Below are positions 6,380 through 21,356 of a stretch of DNA of 40,467 bases, piece after piece. The position numbers and the translations under genes are program-made. The first letter of the stretch is position 1. Each line of letters starts with the position of its first letter. Origin of the DNA: a virus. Lineage: Duplodnaviria; Caudoviricetes. The notes under the pieces were generated by a model. The model was given only the letters and a program-made list of their open reading frames with translations. It was not told where the DNA came from and did no database searches. Where the stretch lies: positions 1 to 40,467 of IMG/VR virus record IMGVR_UViG_3300037307_000179; one strand, given 5' to 3'.

Positions 6380-6384
6380 CACAC

Positions 6385-6418
6385 AGACCCAACATCCGCA
6401 TAGGATGAGGGGTCTTTT
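6385..6418 (+). terminator. intrinsic terminator between convergent genes
   Basis: AGACCC-aa-CATCC/GGATG-ag-GGGTCT plus T run. Confidence 0.55.
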
Positions 6419-6614
6419 ACTTTTTACCTTTTTGTTTTCTGCTTTCAGGTTCATGCAGAAAACCCCATTCACTTGAAACGTCATGAGAGTCTTTCGTTAT
6501 TCGCATTTTATTGCACCGCCAACACAACTGTCTTACTTGACATTTGTAAGGAAGGGGCCATAAAAATTCTCCAGACCAATCATGAATTCCAAAAAAGCAT
6601 AAAATTTTAAACAT
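6417..6614 (-). CDS. small Zn-binding phage protein (DUF1660-like LCFFGIHDW...CWRC)
   Basis: LC-x2-G-x-H-x-W and CxRC motifs, AGAGG RBS on the minus strand. The only convincing minus-strand gene. Confidence 0.6.
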   Translation of the reverse strand: MFKILCFFGIHDWSGEFLWPLPYKCQVRQLCWRCNKMRITKDSHDVSSEWGFLHEPESRKQKGKK

Positions 6615-6666
6615 TTAGCCTCTTTGAACGAGAAAAAAGTACACAAGATAATATACACAAATTCTA

Positions 6667-6963
6667 GTCGGTGATGGTAGAATAGCACCGGCGTCCACGA
6701 AAACATTGTATAAACCCGTTAAACCGGAGTGATGTTAGTTGGGTAACACCAGCAAGGCGGTCATACTCCATCGTGGAAGTGGGTTAAGGCGGGGTGAACG
6801 AGCATCCCAGGGTATCGAAATAAATAAAGTCGGGCAATGTCTTACCATTGACAACCCGCACCCGTGAAGAGCACCTAGCACTAGCATTGAGAATCTGTTG
6901 GCTTGTAAGATACCGCCCACTAACTCTACCAATTATGCCCGAACGAAGATGTTCTTCACGGGT
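6667..6963 (+). ncRNA. candidate large structured ncRNA (class unassigned)
   Basis: GC-rich intergenic segment with more than 10 complementary segments including a 14-bp stem 6860-6873/6950-6963. G-U pairs favour the + strand. Possible promoter TTGAAC-17-GATAAT at 6624-6652. Confidence 0.65.
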
Positions 6964-7012
6964 ATAAAATGGTCTCGGTCTGTACCCACAGAGAAAAAAA
7001 TAAATATTTGTA

Positions 7013-7041
7013 TTGACAAAGACGCTGTTGTAGAATATAAT
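7013..7041 (+). promoter_or_regulatory. sigma70-type promoter
   Basis: TTGACA-17nt-TATAAT. Confidence 0.85.
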
Positions 7042-7070
7042 AAGGTAGTCTCAAAAACCGAAAGAAAAAA

Positions 7071-8033
7071 ATGCAATACAATCTCTGCTGTATTAGTGAA
7101 GAATTAAAAGACGGCGGTCTTAACTTCCAAACAATGACATGGAAGCGTTTTACACTTCTACGCAAACAGTTTGGTGAACACATTGCACTAGAACAGCTTG
7201 GAAACAGGTGGCTCAATAATTTAAATGTTACAATTGCTACAATAAGACATTGTGCAAAAAATTGTTGGGGCTATCGCATGTCAAGCAATATGTTTCCACT
7301 GTTGACACATCCAGATTTTTGTTATAAATTTCATGACGTTCCTCAAGCACAAACAATGGACAGAATGTTTCTGGATGTTTCAACAAACAACGCTTGGCGT
7401 GTCAGATTGTCAATGCACCCAGATCAATTCAATGTTTTGGCCAGCGACAACGAAAGCAGCGTAAATAGAACCATTCGCGAACTAAATTACCACGGTTGGA
7501 TCATGGATAAAATGGGCTGTCAAAAAAATCATTGGAACCCAATCAATATTCATGTGAATTGCTCCAGGGGTAATCCAAACGAAATTGCAAAACGTTTTTA
7601 CAAAAATTTTGATAGATGCGATAATAGCGTAAAAACCAGACTGGTTATTGAAAATGAAGATAAGGGTCTGTGGAATGTTGAAAATTTACTTTTGCATTTT
7701 CGTGGAAACCTTAAGACTCGCTTGCAATTACCAATAACGTTTGATATACTGCACCACAAGTGCAACCCGTCTCCAAATCTAACAACAGATTTTGGCGAGG
7801 ATATGGCAATTGAACTTTGTGACAAGACCTGGGACACCCGACCAATTTTTCACTACAGCGAGTCTCATCCAATGAATAAGAATCAACGTTGCCATGCCGA
7901 CGACCCAAGCGATCTACCACCACCCATTCCTGTAGACTGGGACGTTGAGCTAAAAAATAAAGACAAAGCAATCCGAATGTTGTATTGTATCGAATTGACA
8001 CGCGAAGCAGAAAAAATGGGACTATATGACTGA
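7071..8033 (+). CDS. uvsE: UV-damage endonuclease (UvdE/UvsE family)
   Basis: YRMSS-x-MFP, RLSMHPDQFNVLAS, INIH, RLVIENEDK, PITFDILHH, FHYSE, HAD, DVELKNKD motifs. Confidence 0.92.
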   Translation: MQYNLCCISEELKDGGLNFQTMTWKRFTLLRKQFGEHIALEQLGNRWLNNLNVTIATIRHCAKNCWGYRMSSNMFPLLTHPDFCYKFHDVPQAQTMDRMFLDVSTNNAWRVRLSMHPDQFNVLASDNESSVNRTIRELNYHGWIMDKMGCQKNHWNPINIHVNCSRGNPNEIAKRFYKNFDRCDNSVKTRLVIENEDKGLWNVENLLLHFRGNLKTRLQLPITFDILHHKCNPSPNLTTDFGEDMAIELCDKTWDTRPIFHYSESHPMNKNQRCHADDPSDLPPPIPVDWDVELKNKDKAIRMLYCIELTREAEKMGLYD

Positions 8034-14215: not shown

Positions 14216-14290
14216 TGCGGGTTGGACTGGAGTTGGTTCCAGCTTGGTCTCATAAGCCAAATTACGTGGGTTCGAATCCCACACCCGCAA
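14216..14290 (+). tRNA. tRNA with CAU anticodon (Met, or Ile2; lacks the initiator GGG/CCC)
   Basis: TGCGGGT/ACCCGCA, arm TTGGT-CTCATAA-GCCAA. Confidence 0.85.
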
Positions 14291-14323
14291 CTCAAGATTT
14301 AAAAATAAATAAGGAAAAATAAA

Positions 14324-16846: not shown

Positions 16847-16920
16847 GGTCGGGTAGGCGAATTGGTATAGCCGCCAGTCTTAGGAACTGGTTTTTGTGGG
16901 TTCGAATCCCACCCTGACTA
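16847..16920 (+). tRNA. trnL: tRNA-Leu(UAG), short variable loop
   Basis: GGTCGGG/CCTGACT, arm CCAGT-CTTAGGA-ACTGG. Confidence 0.9.
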
Positions 16921-16922
16921 CT

Positions 16923-17186
16923 ATGAACATAAAAATATACTATCGACGAAACCTAAAAATGTCTGAGGGTAAACTTGCAGCACAAGTTGCACATTGTGTT
17001 GCCAACATTACTCTTGTGGCGATGGAGATTCCTCATAAAATCATTGTTCTTGAAGCCAGTGATGCTAAATTCAATGAATTAAAAAAGGAAGCTAATCACA
17101 TCCAAGTTGATCTTGGTTATACAGAATTAGAACCAAACACTGAAACTTGTCTTGGTATTATTGAGTGGGAGACAACGTTCCCGTAG
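16923..17186 (+). CDS. peptidyl-tRNA hydrolase, Pth2 family (compact, 87 aa)
   Basis: YRRNLKMSEGKLAAQVAH, KIIVL and DLGYTELEPNTETCLGI motifs. ATG at 16923 (the ORF-track start lies inside the tRNA). Confidence 0.85.
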   Translation: MNIKIYYRRNLKMSEGKLAAQVAHCVANITLVAMEIPHKIIVLEASDAKFNELKKEANHIQVDLGYTELEPNTETCLGIIEWETTFP

Positions 17187-19054: not shown

Positions 19055-19167
19055 GGCGAGTGTAGCTCAACGGTAGAGCAACAGGCTGTTTACTTGACGC
19101 TATTGGCACATCAAGTTCCTAGAACTTGTTAAACTGTGGGTAGTGGGTTCGACTCCCACCCTCGCCG
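19055..19167 (+). ncRNA. tRNA-Asn-like RNA with a 40-nt anticodon-loop insert (permuted GUUCCUA module, copy 2)
   Basis: Canonical D arm GCTC-AACGGTA-GAGC, T arm GTGGG-TTCGACT-CCCAC, acceptor GGCGAG/CTCGCC. Insert at 19091-19130. Confidence 0.8.
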
Positions 19168-19237: not shown

Positions 19238-19305
19238 AAGCGGTAAAGAAAGTTCCTAACTTATTTTTTAGGAAGGACTGACGAATGAAAACTTTGGAAT
19301 TGTTT
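19238..19305 (+). promoter_or_regulatory. GUUCCUA module copy 4 overlapping the RBS/start of the 591-aa gene (candidate translational operator)
   Basis: AAGCGGT-AAA-GAAAGT-TCCTA 5' half. TTCCTAA can also pair with TTAGGAA of the RBS. Confidence 0.55.
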
Positions 19306-21060
19306 AATGCCGTTGTTGCGAAGCCAAGCAAGGGGACTGCTCCACTTGTTTCGGAACAGGGTTTTATCATTGAACCAAACGCTACGTGGGCAAAGGATCG
19401 AATACTAAAGTTTTACGCCAAACAAAAGCTGAGTGGAAAAGATCTAAACAAGACGTTTCACAAGAGTTTTGAAAAGGTACGTAATAGCTCTCGATTTGAG
19501 CTATTGATGGAGCAAATCCGTCACTACATTTCTACCTATGGTTCTAACTTTAGCGACGAAGTATATATTCCAGAAGAAGTTTTGGAAGTACCAGATTTGA
19601 AGTTGACTTTCAAAGTCGTAAAGGCTTTGGACAAGTCTGAATTGATTGAAAAGTGCTTGAACATGCTTCGTTCGGGTATCGCCATGACCGAAGAAACCGT
19701 CAACATTTTACTTTCGGTTCTTGTTGATGAACTGGATTATACCTTCACCGGCAAGGAGGGTATCAAGAACAAGGAAGCGATCATCAAGATTGCTGACACC
19801 CATGGTGTTGTTCCTGATAATACGATGGAATTTTTCCGATATGTGATGTATCGTGCTACCGGAGAAACTTTGCTGATCAAGAATAATGTTGCTATTGCAA
19901 AAATCAAGACGTCGTCATTCAATCCATCTGCACAGTTCCGTACTCACGGTTTAGAACGACTTGCCGCCATCTTTAATCGTTTCAAGCCTTTGTTCTTGGC
20001 TTTCAAGAGCAAGTGCCCATCGACGATCAACAAGATTGCTAAGTTGTCAAAGACTCATCACAAGGCAATTCCTCAAAATGCTTTGAATCAAGCTACACAA
20101 CGTCTACTCAACAAGGACGACGTTCATTGGTTTGACAACGCGACACCGTTCGCATTTTTCAAGGCCATGACCGCTGTATACAACCGTATGCAAGGTCAAA
20201 ACACCTTCTGTTACCGTGTTCGCAACGGTAAGAGTTGGTGCAAGGCAAACCCATACGAGCTGAAAGATCATAATAAAACTCTTCGTTTTTCCGGCATGGT
20301 TCAGAACTTCACGTTCTTGAACGAGTATGCAAAGCGGCGATGGAGTTTGATTGGTACCAAGATTTACTTGCCAGAAAATGTGGAGTATGCTGTGCCTACA
20401 TCGGAAAAGATGTATATCGGCAACATTCCTACCGGAACAAAGTTCTATGGTGAGAAACTTGCTGTAGGTATGTATTGGGAAAATAGTTGGGGTGCCTACG
20501 ATCTTGACTTGTCTGCTATCGTATTAGATGGCTCAAAGATTGGTTGGAACGGTAGATATTCCAATGATGGTCTGACATATAGCGGAGATATGACAAACGC
20601 AAAAAACGGTGCTGTTGAGTATCTACATTGTGAGAAAGATATGCTACCTTGTATTGTTAAAATCAACGTGTTCCACGGAAACGAACAAGGCTCTGGCTAT
20701 AAGATCATTGTTGGCAAGGGCGATGACGTTTCTCGTGCATACATGATGAACCCAAACAATTTGTTTGCAGAAGTCAAGACCAAAAGTGTTCAACGACAAA
20801 TGGTTCTTGGTTTGTTTCTTCCAGAAACGATGGGTGTACAATCATTTGTACTATTGAACTTTGGTAATGGTAAGGCACAAATTAGTGGTGCTGGCGGTTT
20901 GGGATTGAAGGCTCTGTATGAAGAATACAAGAACCCATTCAGCTTCAAAACGTTAGTAACAGAACTTGGTGCCGAAATAGTTGATAACCCAGAAGATGCA
21001 GATGTTGATTTGTCTCTTGGTTCACTAGACAAGGACAGCTTTACGAAGCTGTTCGAGTAA
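19285..21060 (+). CDS. 591-aa protein, helical N-terminal region plus TerD-like C-terminal domain
   Basis: GMYW...YDLDLSA...IGWN...YSGDMTNAKNGAVEYL resembles TerD-family DLDLS/SGD motifs. AGGAAGGA RBS. Confidence 0.75.
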   Translation: MKTLELFNAVVAKPSKGTAPLVSEQGFIIEPNATWAKDRILKFYAKQKLSGKDLNKTFHKSFEKVRNSSRFELLMEQIRHYISTYGSNFSDEVYIPEEVLEVPDLKLTFKVVKALDKSELIEKCLNMLRSGIAMTEETVNILLSVLVDELDYTFTGKEGIKNKEAIIKIADTHGVVPDNTMEFFRYVMYRATGETLLIKNNVAIAKIKTSSFNPSAQFRTHGLERLAAIFNRFKPLFLAFKSKCPSTINKIAKLSKTHHKAIPQNALNQATQRLLNKDDVHWFDNATPFAFFKAMTAVYNRMQGQNTFCYRVRNGKSWCKANPYELKDHNKTLRFSGMVQNFTFLNEYAKRRWSLIGTKIYLPENVEYAVPTSEKMYIGNIPTGTKFYGEKLAVGMYWENSWGAYDLDLSAIVLDGSKIGWNGRYSNDGLTYSGDMTNAKNGAVEYLHCEKDMLPCIVKINVFHGNEQGSGYKIIVGKGDDVSRAYMMNPNNLFAEVKTKSVQRQMVLGLFLPETMGVQSFVLLNFGNGKAQISGAGGLGLKALYEEYKNPFSFKTLVTELGAEIVDNPEDADVDLSLGSLDKDSFTKLFE

Positions 21061-21356
21061 GCATGTAGACGTTATTGTTGATGCTTCACGGGACGGGGGT
21101 GCAATTCCCCCCGCCTCCACCAAGAATACACTACCGATTATCTATTTCGTTCGCAGCGTGATATGGCGAATTTAGTAGTGTATTTTTGATGGGGGCGATC
21201 AGATTCGACCGGTGGTTTGATTCAATAACTGCATGTCGTGGTTGATCGGCGGGACACGTAAAAAGCTGATCAAAAGTTTGAGTGGCGTAGAGAATTACGC
21301 TTTGGCAGCTTAGTCTGTCACGGGGGGTTGCCCGCCCCTGTTGCCAAAACGGGCAC
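21034..21356 (+). ncRNA. ssrA: circularly permuted (two-piece) tmRNA: acceptor piece ending CCA at 21122, intervening hairpin 21123-21190, coding piece from 21191
   Basis: TAAGCATGTAG...GGAC-GGGGG-TGCAATT-CCCCC-CGCCTCC-ACCA precedes GGGGGCG..ATTCGAC. G3-U70 pair, PK1, tag frame GVENYALAA* at 21284-21313. Confidence 0.92.

What the first reader, a model, noticed from the sequence alone, without database searches (positions are those of the whole stretch)
6667..6963. ~300-nt highly pseudoknotted ncRNA candidate
Seen: a GC-rich non-coding island with helices 6667-73/6686-92, 6694-6700/6771-77, 6713-18/6780-85 (crossing), 6726-34/6762-69, 6789-93/6855-59, 6835-39/6846-50 and a 14-bp stem 6860-73/6950-63. 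The strand 6905-6941 inside the last stem's loop is a concatenation of complements to five separate upstream segments: GTAAGA to loop TCTTAC (6840-45), ACCGCC to GGCGGT (6756-61), ACTAAC to GTTAGT (6734-39), TCTACCA to loop TGGTAGA (6675-81), and TGCCCG to CGGGCA (6831-36). A plausible own promoter lies at 6624-6652. I recognise no RNase P, SRP, 6S, intron or riboswitch signature. Inference: a complex large RNA, possibly a ribozyme or scaffold. Some helices may be mutually exclusive.
Basis: partly seen in the sequence, partly recalled or inferred. Interest (0 to 1): 0.75.

Follow-up and report, generated by a model that had tools for sequence, protein, structure and literature searches.

The report
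Six-pseudoknot phage RNA with shared core
This gap between phage genes holds a conserved gene for a roughly 310-base knotted non-coding RNA that matches no catalogued RNA family, whose 3' core recurs in dozens of otherwise different phage RNAs, and which likely works on its own as a stable folded decoy or scaffold, though neither its expression nor its job has been tested.

Summary
Real, and larger than flagged: window 6667-6979 (+) is one of 54 distinct full-length homologues (50-99% identity) in large uncultured phages, with no Rfam match. Compensatory changes support six nested stems and six pseudoknots. The strand 6909-6931 instead zips to three other upstream segments, and the 3' tail (6968-6977) is locked by two further pseudoknots. 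A conserved alternative helix (6933-6949 competing with 6860-6873 for 6950-6967) points to a two-state fold. The RNA follows its own sigma-70-like promoter or a tRNA, and the next gene has its own promoter, so it is stand-alone. Its 3' core (C-loop-like hairpin, long-range helix, A-rich linker, loop-tail pairing) recurs in about 30 sequence-distinct phage RNA groups, with no shared neighbouring gene. Best guess (0.4): a nuclease-resistant trans-acting decoy or scaffold; ribozyme and RNA-only assembly are live rivals. Expression and function untested.

The parts
6624..6652 (+). sigma-70-like promoter candidate for the RNA
   Evidence: 9 of 12 consensus matches; 28 of 54 members have such a site ending within 12 nt of the model start, the window's ends 14 nt before
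6667..6979 (+). the non-coding RNA gene (313 nt)
   Evidence: covariance model R1 match 6664-6981, 192 bits; conservation ends at the CGGU tail
6667..6692 (+). P1 hairpin; its loop 6675-6681 pairs with 6925-6931 (pk4)
   Evidence: (pair 6681-6925 E 0.03; 6679-6927 E 0.07)
6694..6777 (+). P2 (6694-6700/6771-6777) enclosing an A-rich strand, P3 (6726-34/6762-69) and pk1 (6716-18/6758-60); predicted U.A-U / C.G-C base triple; extra hairpin 6738-6753 in this copy
   Evidence: (pk1 cognate 4.3 bp vs 3.1 non-cognate; canonical triple letters in 42 of 54)
6778..6784 (+). 5' strand of pk2, pairs with 6915-6921
   Evidence: 99% paired in 53 homologues; 6781-6918 E 0.03
6791..6808 (+). P5 hairpin; loop 6799-6802 pairs with tail 6974-6977 (pk6)
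   Evidence: 212 of 212 cells paired; CGAC/GUCG, CGAG/CUCG and CAAG/CUUG variants
6811..6816 (+). 5' strand of pk3, pairs with 6909-6914
   Evidence: 99% paired; 6814-6911 E 0.03
6831..6858 (+). P6 hairpin with a C-loop-like internal loop (6835-37 opposite 6854); loop 6844-49 pairs with tail 6968-73 (pk5); centre of the shared core
   Evidence: stems 100% paired; CAA/CUC/CUA/CAC opposite A in 53 of 54; pk5 cognate 3.9 bp vs 2.9 non-cognate
6860..6873 (+). X strand of long-range helix P7, pairs with Z (6950-6963)
   Evidence: 477 of 477 cells paired; 6866-6957 E 0.07
6883..6903 (+). P8, short and weakly supported
   Evidence: two pairs, one-sided changes only
6909..6931 (+). woven 3' strand carrying the partners of pk3, pk2 and pk4 in nested order
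6933..6949 (+). Y strand, an imperfect copy of X that can pair with 6953-6967 in place of X
   Evidence: mean 6.7 bp vs 4.6 for shuffled Y; hairpin more stable than shuffled mean in 54 of 54
6950..6979 (+). Z strand, A-rich linker and doubly paired 3' tail
7013..7041 (+). perfect sigma-70-like promoter of the next gene (not part of the RNA)
   Evidence: 12 of 12; 39 of 54 members have a 10-of-12 or better site downstream
7071..8033 (+). UV-damage endonuclease gene (neighbour in 20 of 54 members only)
   Evidence: Pfam PF03851

Best explanation
Window 6667-6979 is a conserved stand-alone phage gene whose sequence keeps six stems and six pseudoknots across 54 homologues, and it is likely transcribed by the host polymerase into a compact, nuclease-resistant RNA that likely acts in trans as a decoy or docking scaffold for a host protein or complex. 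Shown by calls: the family, the pairings, the + strand, the promoter-like sites on both sides, the changing neighbours and the recurrence of the 3' core in other phage RNAs. Inferred: the 5' hairpin loop and the 3' tail are both tied into the fold, which would block exonucleases without a terminator hairpin; the newly made 3' end would first fold as the local Y-Z hairpin and then exchange to X-Z, freeing the tail to dock on loops L6 and L5 as a last maturation step; the C-loop-like helix with A-rich strands on both sides would be the conserved surface that a widely conserved host partner binds, with the 5' domain tuning stability or specificity.
For: 54 full-length members, median identity 63%. 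47 of 78 pairs change on both sides on alignment A5, 96% of cells paired, slid controls 34-46% (the structure was derived from these sequences). In a tree-aware test of my own, 27 of the 30 top pairs (E up to 0.43) are model pairs, including pk2, pk3, pk4 at E 0.03 and pk6 at E 0.07; the alignment was fitted to nested stems only. Divergent second copies change otherwise invariant pseudoknot pairs on both sides. G-U outnumbers A-C 196 to 13 and no conserved ORF (median longest 18 aa). Promoter directly upstream in 28, tRNA within 30 nt in 15, separate downstream promoter in 39, uvsE next in only 20 of 54. No terminator-like site found. Core: 88 of 119 pattern hits pair at two free positions, about 7 expected; 30 of 52 clusters have helix, A-rich linker and loop-tail pairing against 6.4 with shuffled downstream sequence; neighbours are unrelated and sometimes on the other strand. 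C-loops serve as protein-binding surfaces in viroids and a bacterial mRNA (passages of 10.1101/2021.12.02.470923).
Against: No transcript, partner or activity was shown. No gene follows the RNA's distribution beyond clade markers. Complete or near-complete relatives lack the family (G004 complete, G005 86%, G021 88%), so it is dispensable. Nearly all conserved bases are explained by pairing or A-rich docking, so nothing singles out a binding face. The Y-Z alternative is not general to the wider core (5.2 vs 4.8 bp) and the upstream pk3-like pairing is only modestly above chance there (7.75 vs 6.7 bp; 7 of 28 at p up to 0.05). The C-loop is assigned by sequence pattern, not by a structure.
Confidence: 0.4

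Rival explanations
1. It is a new large ribozyme: a conserved core with variable periphery, in which X and Y dock in turn on the guide strand Z (as P1 and P10 do in group I introns, recalled) to cut or join RNA, perhaps maturing the tRNA transcript it often follows.
For: Core-plus-periphery organisation across about 30 groups; dense pseudoknots; an almost invariant U-G pair at the pk2/pk3 junction (36 of 37); start 2-4 nt behind a tRNA in 9 of 54; conserved alternative helix.
Against: 28 of 54 start right behind a promoter with no tRNA within 30 nt; no Rfam ribozyme match at E up to 10; Y-Z is family-specific; no joints or deletions in four DNA runs.
Confidence: 0.2
2. It builds an RNA-only oligomer or cage like ROOL, GOLLD or manA: some of the covarying loop pairings, or an X-Z strand swap, form between copies.
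For: ROOL and GOLLD are multi-pseudoknot phage RNAs near tRNA islands with no known protein partner that form cages (passages of PMC12286853); manA and EGFOA under 200 nt form cages and a strand-exchanged dimer (first part of 10.64898/2026.07.01.735769). The two paralogue types carry different loop codes, which would keep assemblies apart. GNRA or UUCG tetraloops cap the variable hairpin in 29 of 54.
Against: Every covarying loop has a partner in the same molecule; raiA, of similar size and complexity, is a monomer; no match to those families.
Confidence: 0.2
3. The shared core is only a portable 3'-end cap against exonucleases, and the functional part is the variable upstream domain.
For: The core lies at the 3' end of this family and of the groups inspected, and joins different upstream sequences; no terminator-like site.
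Against: The core's long helix encloses strands that pair far upstream (pk2-pk4), so core and 5' domain are interwoven, not separable.
Confidence: 0.1
4. It is a guide, template or mobile-element RNA served by a nuclease or reverse transcriptase (HEARO/omega-RNA, TnpB reRNA, DRT-type RNA).
For: Two copies in G002 and G018; a 3'-only fragment in L194; repeats X and Y flank a 70-nt stretch; HEARO RNAs carry a similar internal-loop helix (read by eye).
Against: No RVT_1 or TnpB zinc-ribbon match in five carrier records, two near-complete, with controls ringing; no shared adjacent gene; in HEARO the helix is oriented the other way round; each locus keeps its synteny rather than moving.
Confidence: 0.06
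5. It is a cis-acting leader or riboswitch for the UV-damage endonuclease gene, with X/Y-Z as the switch.
For: uvsE follows in 20 of 54; a two-state helix lies at the 3' end.
Against: A near-perfect promoter separates RNA and gene in 39 of 54; the next gene differs in 34 of 54; Y-Z has no U run behind it and does not cover a ribosome-binding site.
Confidence: 0.03

Closest known systems
ROOL (RF03087, accession recalled) and GOLLD (RF02032, accession recalled)
   Same: Phage-encoded, near tRNA islands, many pseudoknots, no known protein partner; GOLLD has a conserved 3' region and variable 5' region (passages of PMC12286853).
   Different: 550-830 nt against 287-358 nt here; no model match at E up to 10; multimer state untested here.
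raiA motif RNA
   Same: Compact ornate RNA (205 nt) that folds alone as a monomer (passages).
   Different: Bacterial and not phage-borne (recalled); no Rfam match.
manA RNA (RF01745) and EGFOA (RF02955)
   Same: Structured RNAs, manA also in phages, that form RNA-only cages or a strand-exchanged dimer.
   Different: Under 200 nt; manA model finds nothing in five carrier records (the control genomes did not ring either) and nothing in the window region.
HEARO / omega-RNA (RF02033)
   Same: A similar 3-against-1 internal loop flanked by the same kind of pairs (10 loci fetched, read by eye).
   Different: The short strand comes first and the hairpin closes the other end; HEARO sits directly before its nuclease gene, this RNA has none.
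Same family noted earlier in this scan (e1-5653163)
   Same: About 300-nt multi-pseudoknot RNA, two copies, large phages; shares 9 of 89 words with the paralogue L225.

Membership tests
Any Rfam 15 family | covariance-model match | tested here: not met
   none over 6400-7100 at E up to 10; none over the core in 60 other loci at E up to 0.5
ROOL / GOLLD | sequence-structure match to the family model | tested here: not met
ROOL / GOLLD | length 550-830 nt | tested here: not met
   287-358 nt against lengths in table 1 of PMC12990946
ROOL / GOLLD | phage location near tRNA genes | tested here: met
   tRNA within 30 nt in 15 of 54; 22 tRNA calls in the window; the second locus is not near tRNAs in the flanks read
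ROOL / GOLLD / manA | RNA-only multimer | not testable with these tools
   needs mass photometry or cryo-EM
manA | match to RF01745 | tested here: not met
   one search also blank but its controls did not ring
HEARO / omega-RNA | match to RF02033 and same helix order | tested here: not met
HEARO / omega-RNA | adjacent IscB/IsrB gene | tested here: not met
   next genes are uvsE or unrelated; genome-wide PF14239 search blank but its controls did not ring
TnpB reRNA or RT-linked RNA (retron, DRT, UG27) | linked TnpB or reverse transcriptase gene | tested here: not met
   0 of 5 records, two near-complete, controls rang
Group I / group II intron | interrupts a gene and matches the intron core | tested here: not met
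   lies between a promoter or complete tRNA and another promoter; no Rfam match
RNase P RNA, SRP RNA, 6S, tmRNA | family model match | tested here: not met
   the phage's tmRNA lies elsewhere, 21061-21313
Self-cleaving ribozyme (any class) | site-specific self-cleavage | not testable with these tools
   needs in vitro transcription
Riboswitch / cis leader | same transcript as a consistent downstream gene, with terminator or RBS control | tested here: not met
C-loop motif | asymmetric internal loop, longer strand starting with C, in a hairpin stem | tested here: met
   against the description
C-loop motif | two base triads of non-Watson-Crick pairs | not testable with these tools
   needs a structure

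The most novel reading that the evidence does not exclude
This RNA is the most elaborate member of a widespread, undescribed superfamily of stand-alone phage RNAs built on one core (C-loop-like hairpin, long-range helix, A-rich linker, loop-tail pseudoknot), and that core is a new large ribozyme or a universal RNA weapon against a conserved host machine, used by dozens of unrelated phage lineages.
Probability: 0.3. Interest if true: 0.93.

Novelty: categorically new. Interest (0 to 1): 0.78.

Why it matters
Large protein-free RNA folds are rare, and the few known phage ones (ROOL, GOLLD, manA) gave unexpected structures. This one packs six covarying pseudoknots, a predicted triple and a conserved two-state helix into about 300 nt, a ready target for probing and cryo-EM. 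The larger point is the core shared by about 30 sequence-distinct phage RNA groups that Rfam misses: one fold kept by many phages with no protein partner next to it makes the open question of what phage ornate RNAs do testable with short natural variants (some span only 54-60 nt across the long helix). 'Categorically new' refers to the fold and family; in kind it joins the ornate phage RNAs of unknown function, and the family itself was noted once before in this scan.

Tried and rejected
Expression: the look-up of sequencing runs listed 4 holders, all DNA; no RNA holder listed, which says nothing either way. Contigs of those four runs showed no other letters in the RNA (one run may be the source). 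blastn of the RNA or of core members against cultured phages and plasmids gave nothing or chance hits. One looser pattern gave 100 loci of which only known members matched the profile. The one genome-contig hit lies on a phage-like contig in a SAR202 bin and scores the same as L017's copy, so it is no host evidence; the core pattern hit 3 of 401 genomes of that phylum, one being this contig and two unpaired at the free positions. Host not established (uninformative). The upstream gap 6380-6660 has no homologue among 46 loci, and a suspected second RNA upstream in L009 is the end of a dCMP-deaminase-like gene. A tRNA-CCA-binding role for the UGGU loop was considered: it has a covarying partner inside the RNA and varies in 2 of 54. 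Gene content of two carriers against three non-carriers gave 27 shared ORFs, none an evident RNA partner (G014 only its first 100 kb). A descriptor scan of those genomes found no convincing core in non-carriers and missed G001's own copy, so it is not sensitive. Of 57 loci searched, 14 matched strongly; the rest are core-only or chance. L013's record was not held. Literature: nine answered full-text searches plus one on C-loops showed no paper on this RNA; most subscription papers are not in the library. Fremin et al. 2023 (PMC10690425; passages) list candidates of at most 151 nt; a motif search of its supplements found nothing, but three held files and three large files were not searched, so fragments may be listed there. 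PMC10085705 and 10.64898/2026.09.22.753630 (abstract and passages) describe other RNAs.

Full report
Setting. The window is a 40-kb fragment (24% complete) of a large phage: rIIB-like gene, thymidylate synthase, ribonucleotide reductase, PhoH, RecA, 22 tRNA calls and a permuted tmRNA. The flagged stretch lies between a 70-codon ORF and a UV-damage endonuclease gene. The four runs that hold it are labelled freshwater or groundwater metagenomes.

Observation. All twelve complementarities exist. Alone they are weak evidence: 54 of 2000 shuffles match the concatenation statistic and the fold z-score is -2.19. Rfam gives nothing at gathering level or at E up to 10.

Homologues. Loci fetched through the neighbouring endonuclease (45 loci) gave 15 hits among 46 loci searched. 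A pattern from their alignment gave 14 viral and 41 metagenome loci; all 41 matched the profile. A covariance model built from 37 sequences found divergent second copies in G002 and G018, one more member through a tail pattern and 14 strong hits among 57 further loci. After removing duplicates and fragments, 54 full-length members remain, 287-358 nt, identity 50-99%, median 63%, the window at most 67% identical to any.

Structure. On the 37-sequence alignment a 78-pair model is 96% paired with 47 pairs changed on both sides; slid controls give 34-46% (structure derived from these sequences). I ran a tree-aware covariation test of my own (G-test with average-product correction, 30 null alignments, modelled on R-scape, not R-scape itself) on the 54: 27 of the 30 best pairs are model pairs, the other three involve the badly aligned loop L6. 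The model in window coordinates (checked): P1 6667-73/6686-92; P2 6694-6700/6771-77; P3 6726-34/6762-69; P5 6791-96/6803-08; P6 6831-34/6855-58 and 6838-41/6850-53; P7 6860-73/6950-63; pk1 6716-18/6758-60; pk2 6778-84/6915-21; pk3 6811-16/6909-14; pk4 6675-81/6925-31; pk5 6844-49/6968-73; pk6 6799-6802/6974-77. pk2, pk3 and pk4 have pairs at E 0.03 and pk6 at 0.07; pk1 and pk5 shift in register between subgroups and rest on cognate against non-cognate pairing (4.3 vs 3.1 and 3.9 vs 2.9 bp), with pk1 down to 2-3 pairs in 5 of 54. The second-locus copies change pseudoknot pairs that are invariant in the first group, on both sides. Three columns around pk1 read A/U/U in 32 and G/C/C in 10 of 54, as a major-groove triple would (inference; the window itself does not fit). 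G-U pairs outnumber A-C 196 to 13, which fixes the + strand and RNA, and no ORF is conserved.

An alternative helix. Segment Y (6933-6949) is an imperfect copy of X and pairs with Z plus the first linker bases: mean 6.7 bp against 4.6 for shuffled Y, and a hairpin of -10.7 against -3.8 kcal/mol, stronger than the shuffled mean in 54 of 54; the X-Z duplex averages -17.7 (duplex and hairpin energies are not strictly comparable). Non-cognate Y-Z pairing is almost as good (6.5 bp) because Z barely varies, but where Z changes Y mostly follows, as in the window, L173, L203, L211, L206 and L306; L213, L174 and L238 follow poorly. Y-Z and X-Z exclude each other, so I infer two states, most simply a local hairpin formed first and displaced later.

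Gene context. 28 of 54 members have a sigma-70-like site ending within 12 nt of the model start, 15 follow a tRNA within 30 nt (9 of them within 4 nt), 11 fit neither rule, among them the window, whose site ends 14 nt before; 39 have a separate strong promoter downstream; uvsE follows in 20. The second locus faces away from a sigma-factor-like gene cluster and has varied downstream genes. No terminator-like site was found in the window. A complete relative (G004) and two near-complete ones lack the family. No reverse transcriptase or TnpB domain was found in five carrier records.

A shared core. The pattern for P6 also hit intergenic RNAs whose other parts differ. Pooling both scans, 140 loci fall in 53 sequence clusters; 30 of the 52 testable clusters, one being this family, show the long helix directly after P6, an A-rich linker and a strand complementary to the loop, against 6.4 with shuffled downstream sequence (threshold set by me after seeing the data). 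Loops and partners change together between clusters. Sixty of these loci gave no Rfam match over the core. Their neighbours are terminases, DNA methylases, recombinases, helicases and others, some on the opposite strand. The Y-Z alternative is not general among 28 cluster representatives; an upstream strand pairing into the P7 loop is clear in 7 of 28.

Mechanism. Shown: a conserved stand-alone non-coding gene with a woven fold and both ends paired into it. Inferred: transcription by host polymerase, exonuclease resistance, a last strand-exchange step, and a role in trans. Because the core is kept by phages of very different gene content with no linked protein, its function is either self-contained (catalysis, self-assembly) or aimed at a widely conserved host component. 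I put most weight (0.4) on a decoy or scaffold, since C-loops are known protein-binding surfaces and no catalytic-looking unpaired core stands out, with ribozyme (0.2) and RNA-only assembly (0.2) next.

Known systems. It resembles ROOL, GOLLD, raiA and manA in kind but meets none of their models. HEARO has a similar internal-loop helix in the reverse orientation. The paper searches listed under Tried and rejected found no description. An earlier agent of this scan reported the family from another genome; searches by sequence with two core-only RNAs and by words found no note of the shared core.

Verdict. Observation partly confirmed, interpretation partly supported; a new RNA class by fold, probably one member of a wider superfamily; interest 0.78.

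Noticed in passing
L247, L250, L266, L268, L275, L277, L278, L285, L286, L288, L295, L301, L355, L357, L361, L362, L368, L377, L392, L399, L403, L405, L411, L427, L448, L455, L461 (motif at about 1200 or 1500 of each locus): Other uncatalogued phage intergenic RNAs that share the 3' core but differ elsewhere; each needs its own alignment. L301, L250 and L266 also show a hairpin with a loop like L5 upstream.
   Followed up: partly
L206:1501-1796 (-), L225:1501-1817 (+): Second, divergent copy of the RNA about 22 kb from the first in the same phage, at a syntenic site beside a sigma-factor-like gene cluster, with different loop codes.
   Followed up: yes
L194:4905-4991: A 3'-only 85-nt piece of the RNA (woven strand, Y, Z, tail, then a promoter) 1.7 kb behind a full copy; recombination relic or separately used strand.
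   Followed up: partly
window 21061-21313 (+): Permuted (two-piece) tmRNA, Rfam RF04321, 80 bits; also in L002, L006, L009 and L361, while L011 has a one-piece tmRNA.
   Followed up: no
window 16896-17186 (+): Peptidyl-tRNA hydrolase PTH2-like gene inside the tRNA cluster (PF01981).
   Followed up: partly
window 19285-21060 (+): 591-codon ORF directly before the tmRNA with no Pfam or PHROG family and no match in five related genomes.
   Followed up: no
L357:465-586 (-): Y-RNA-like (YrlA) match below the gathering score about 600 nt from a core RNA; the adjoining partial ORF looks like the start of a Ro60-type protein by recall but had no Pfam hit.
   Followed up: partly
L202 (genome contigs record, 152 kb): A contig binned in a SAR202 genome carries rIIA/rIIB-like and uvsE genes and an RNA copy scoring the same as L017's; probably a mis-binned phage.
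   Followed up: partly
window 14216-14291 and 19056-19166: Odd tRNA-like calls: one with an unreadable anticodon, one 111-nt weak Rfam tRNA match not called by ARAGORN.
   Followed up: no
window 6380-6620: 240-nt non-coding stretch upstream of the promoter with no homologue among 46 loci.
   Followed up: partly
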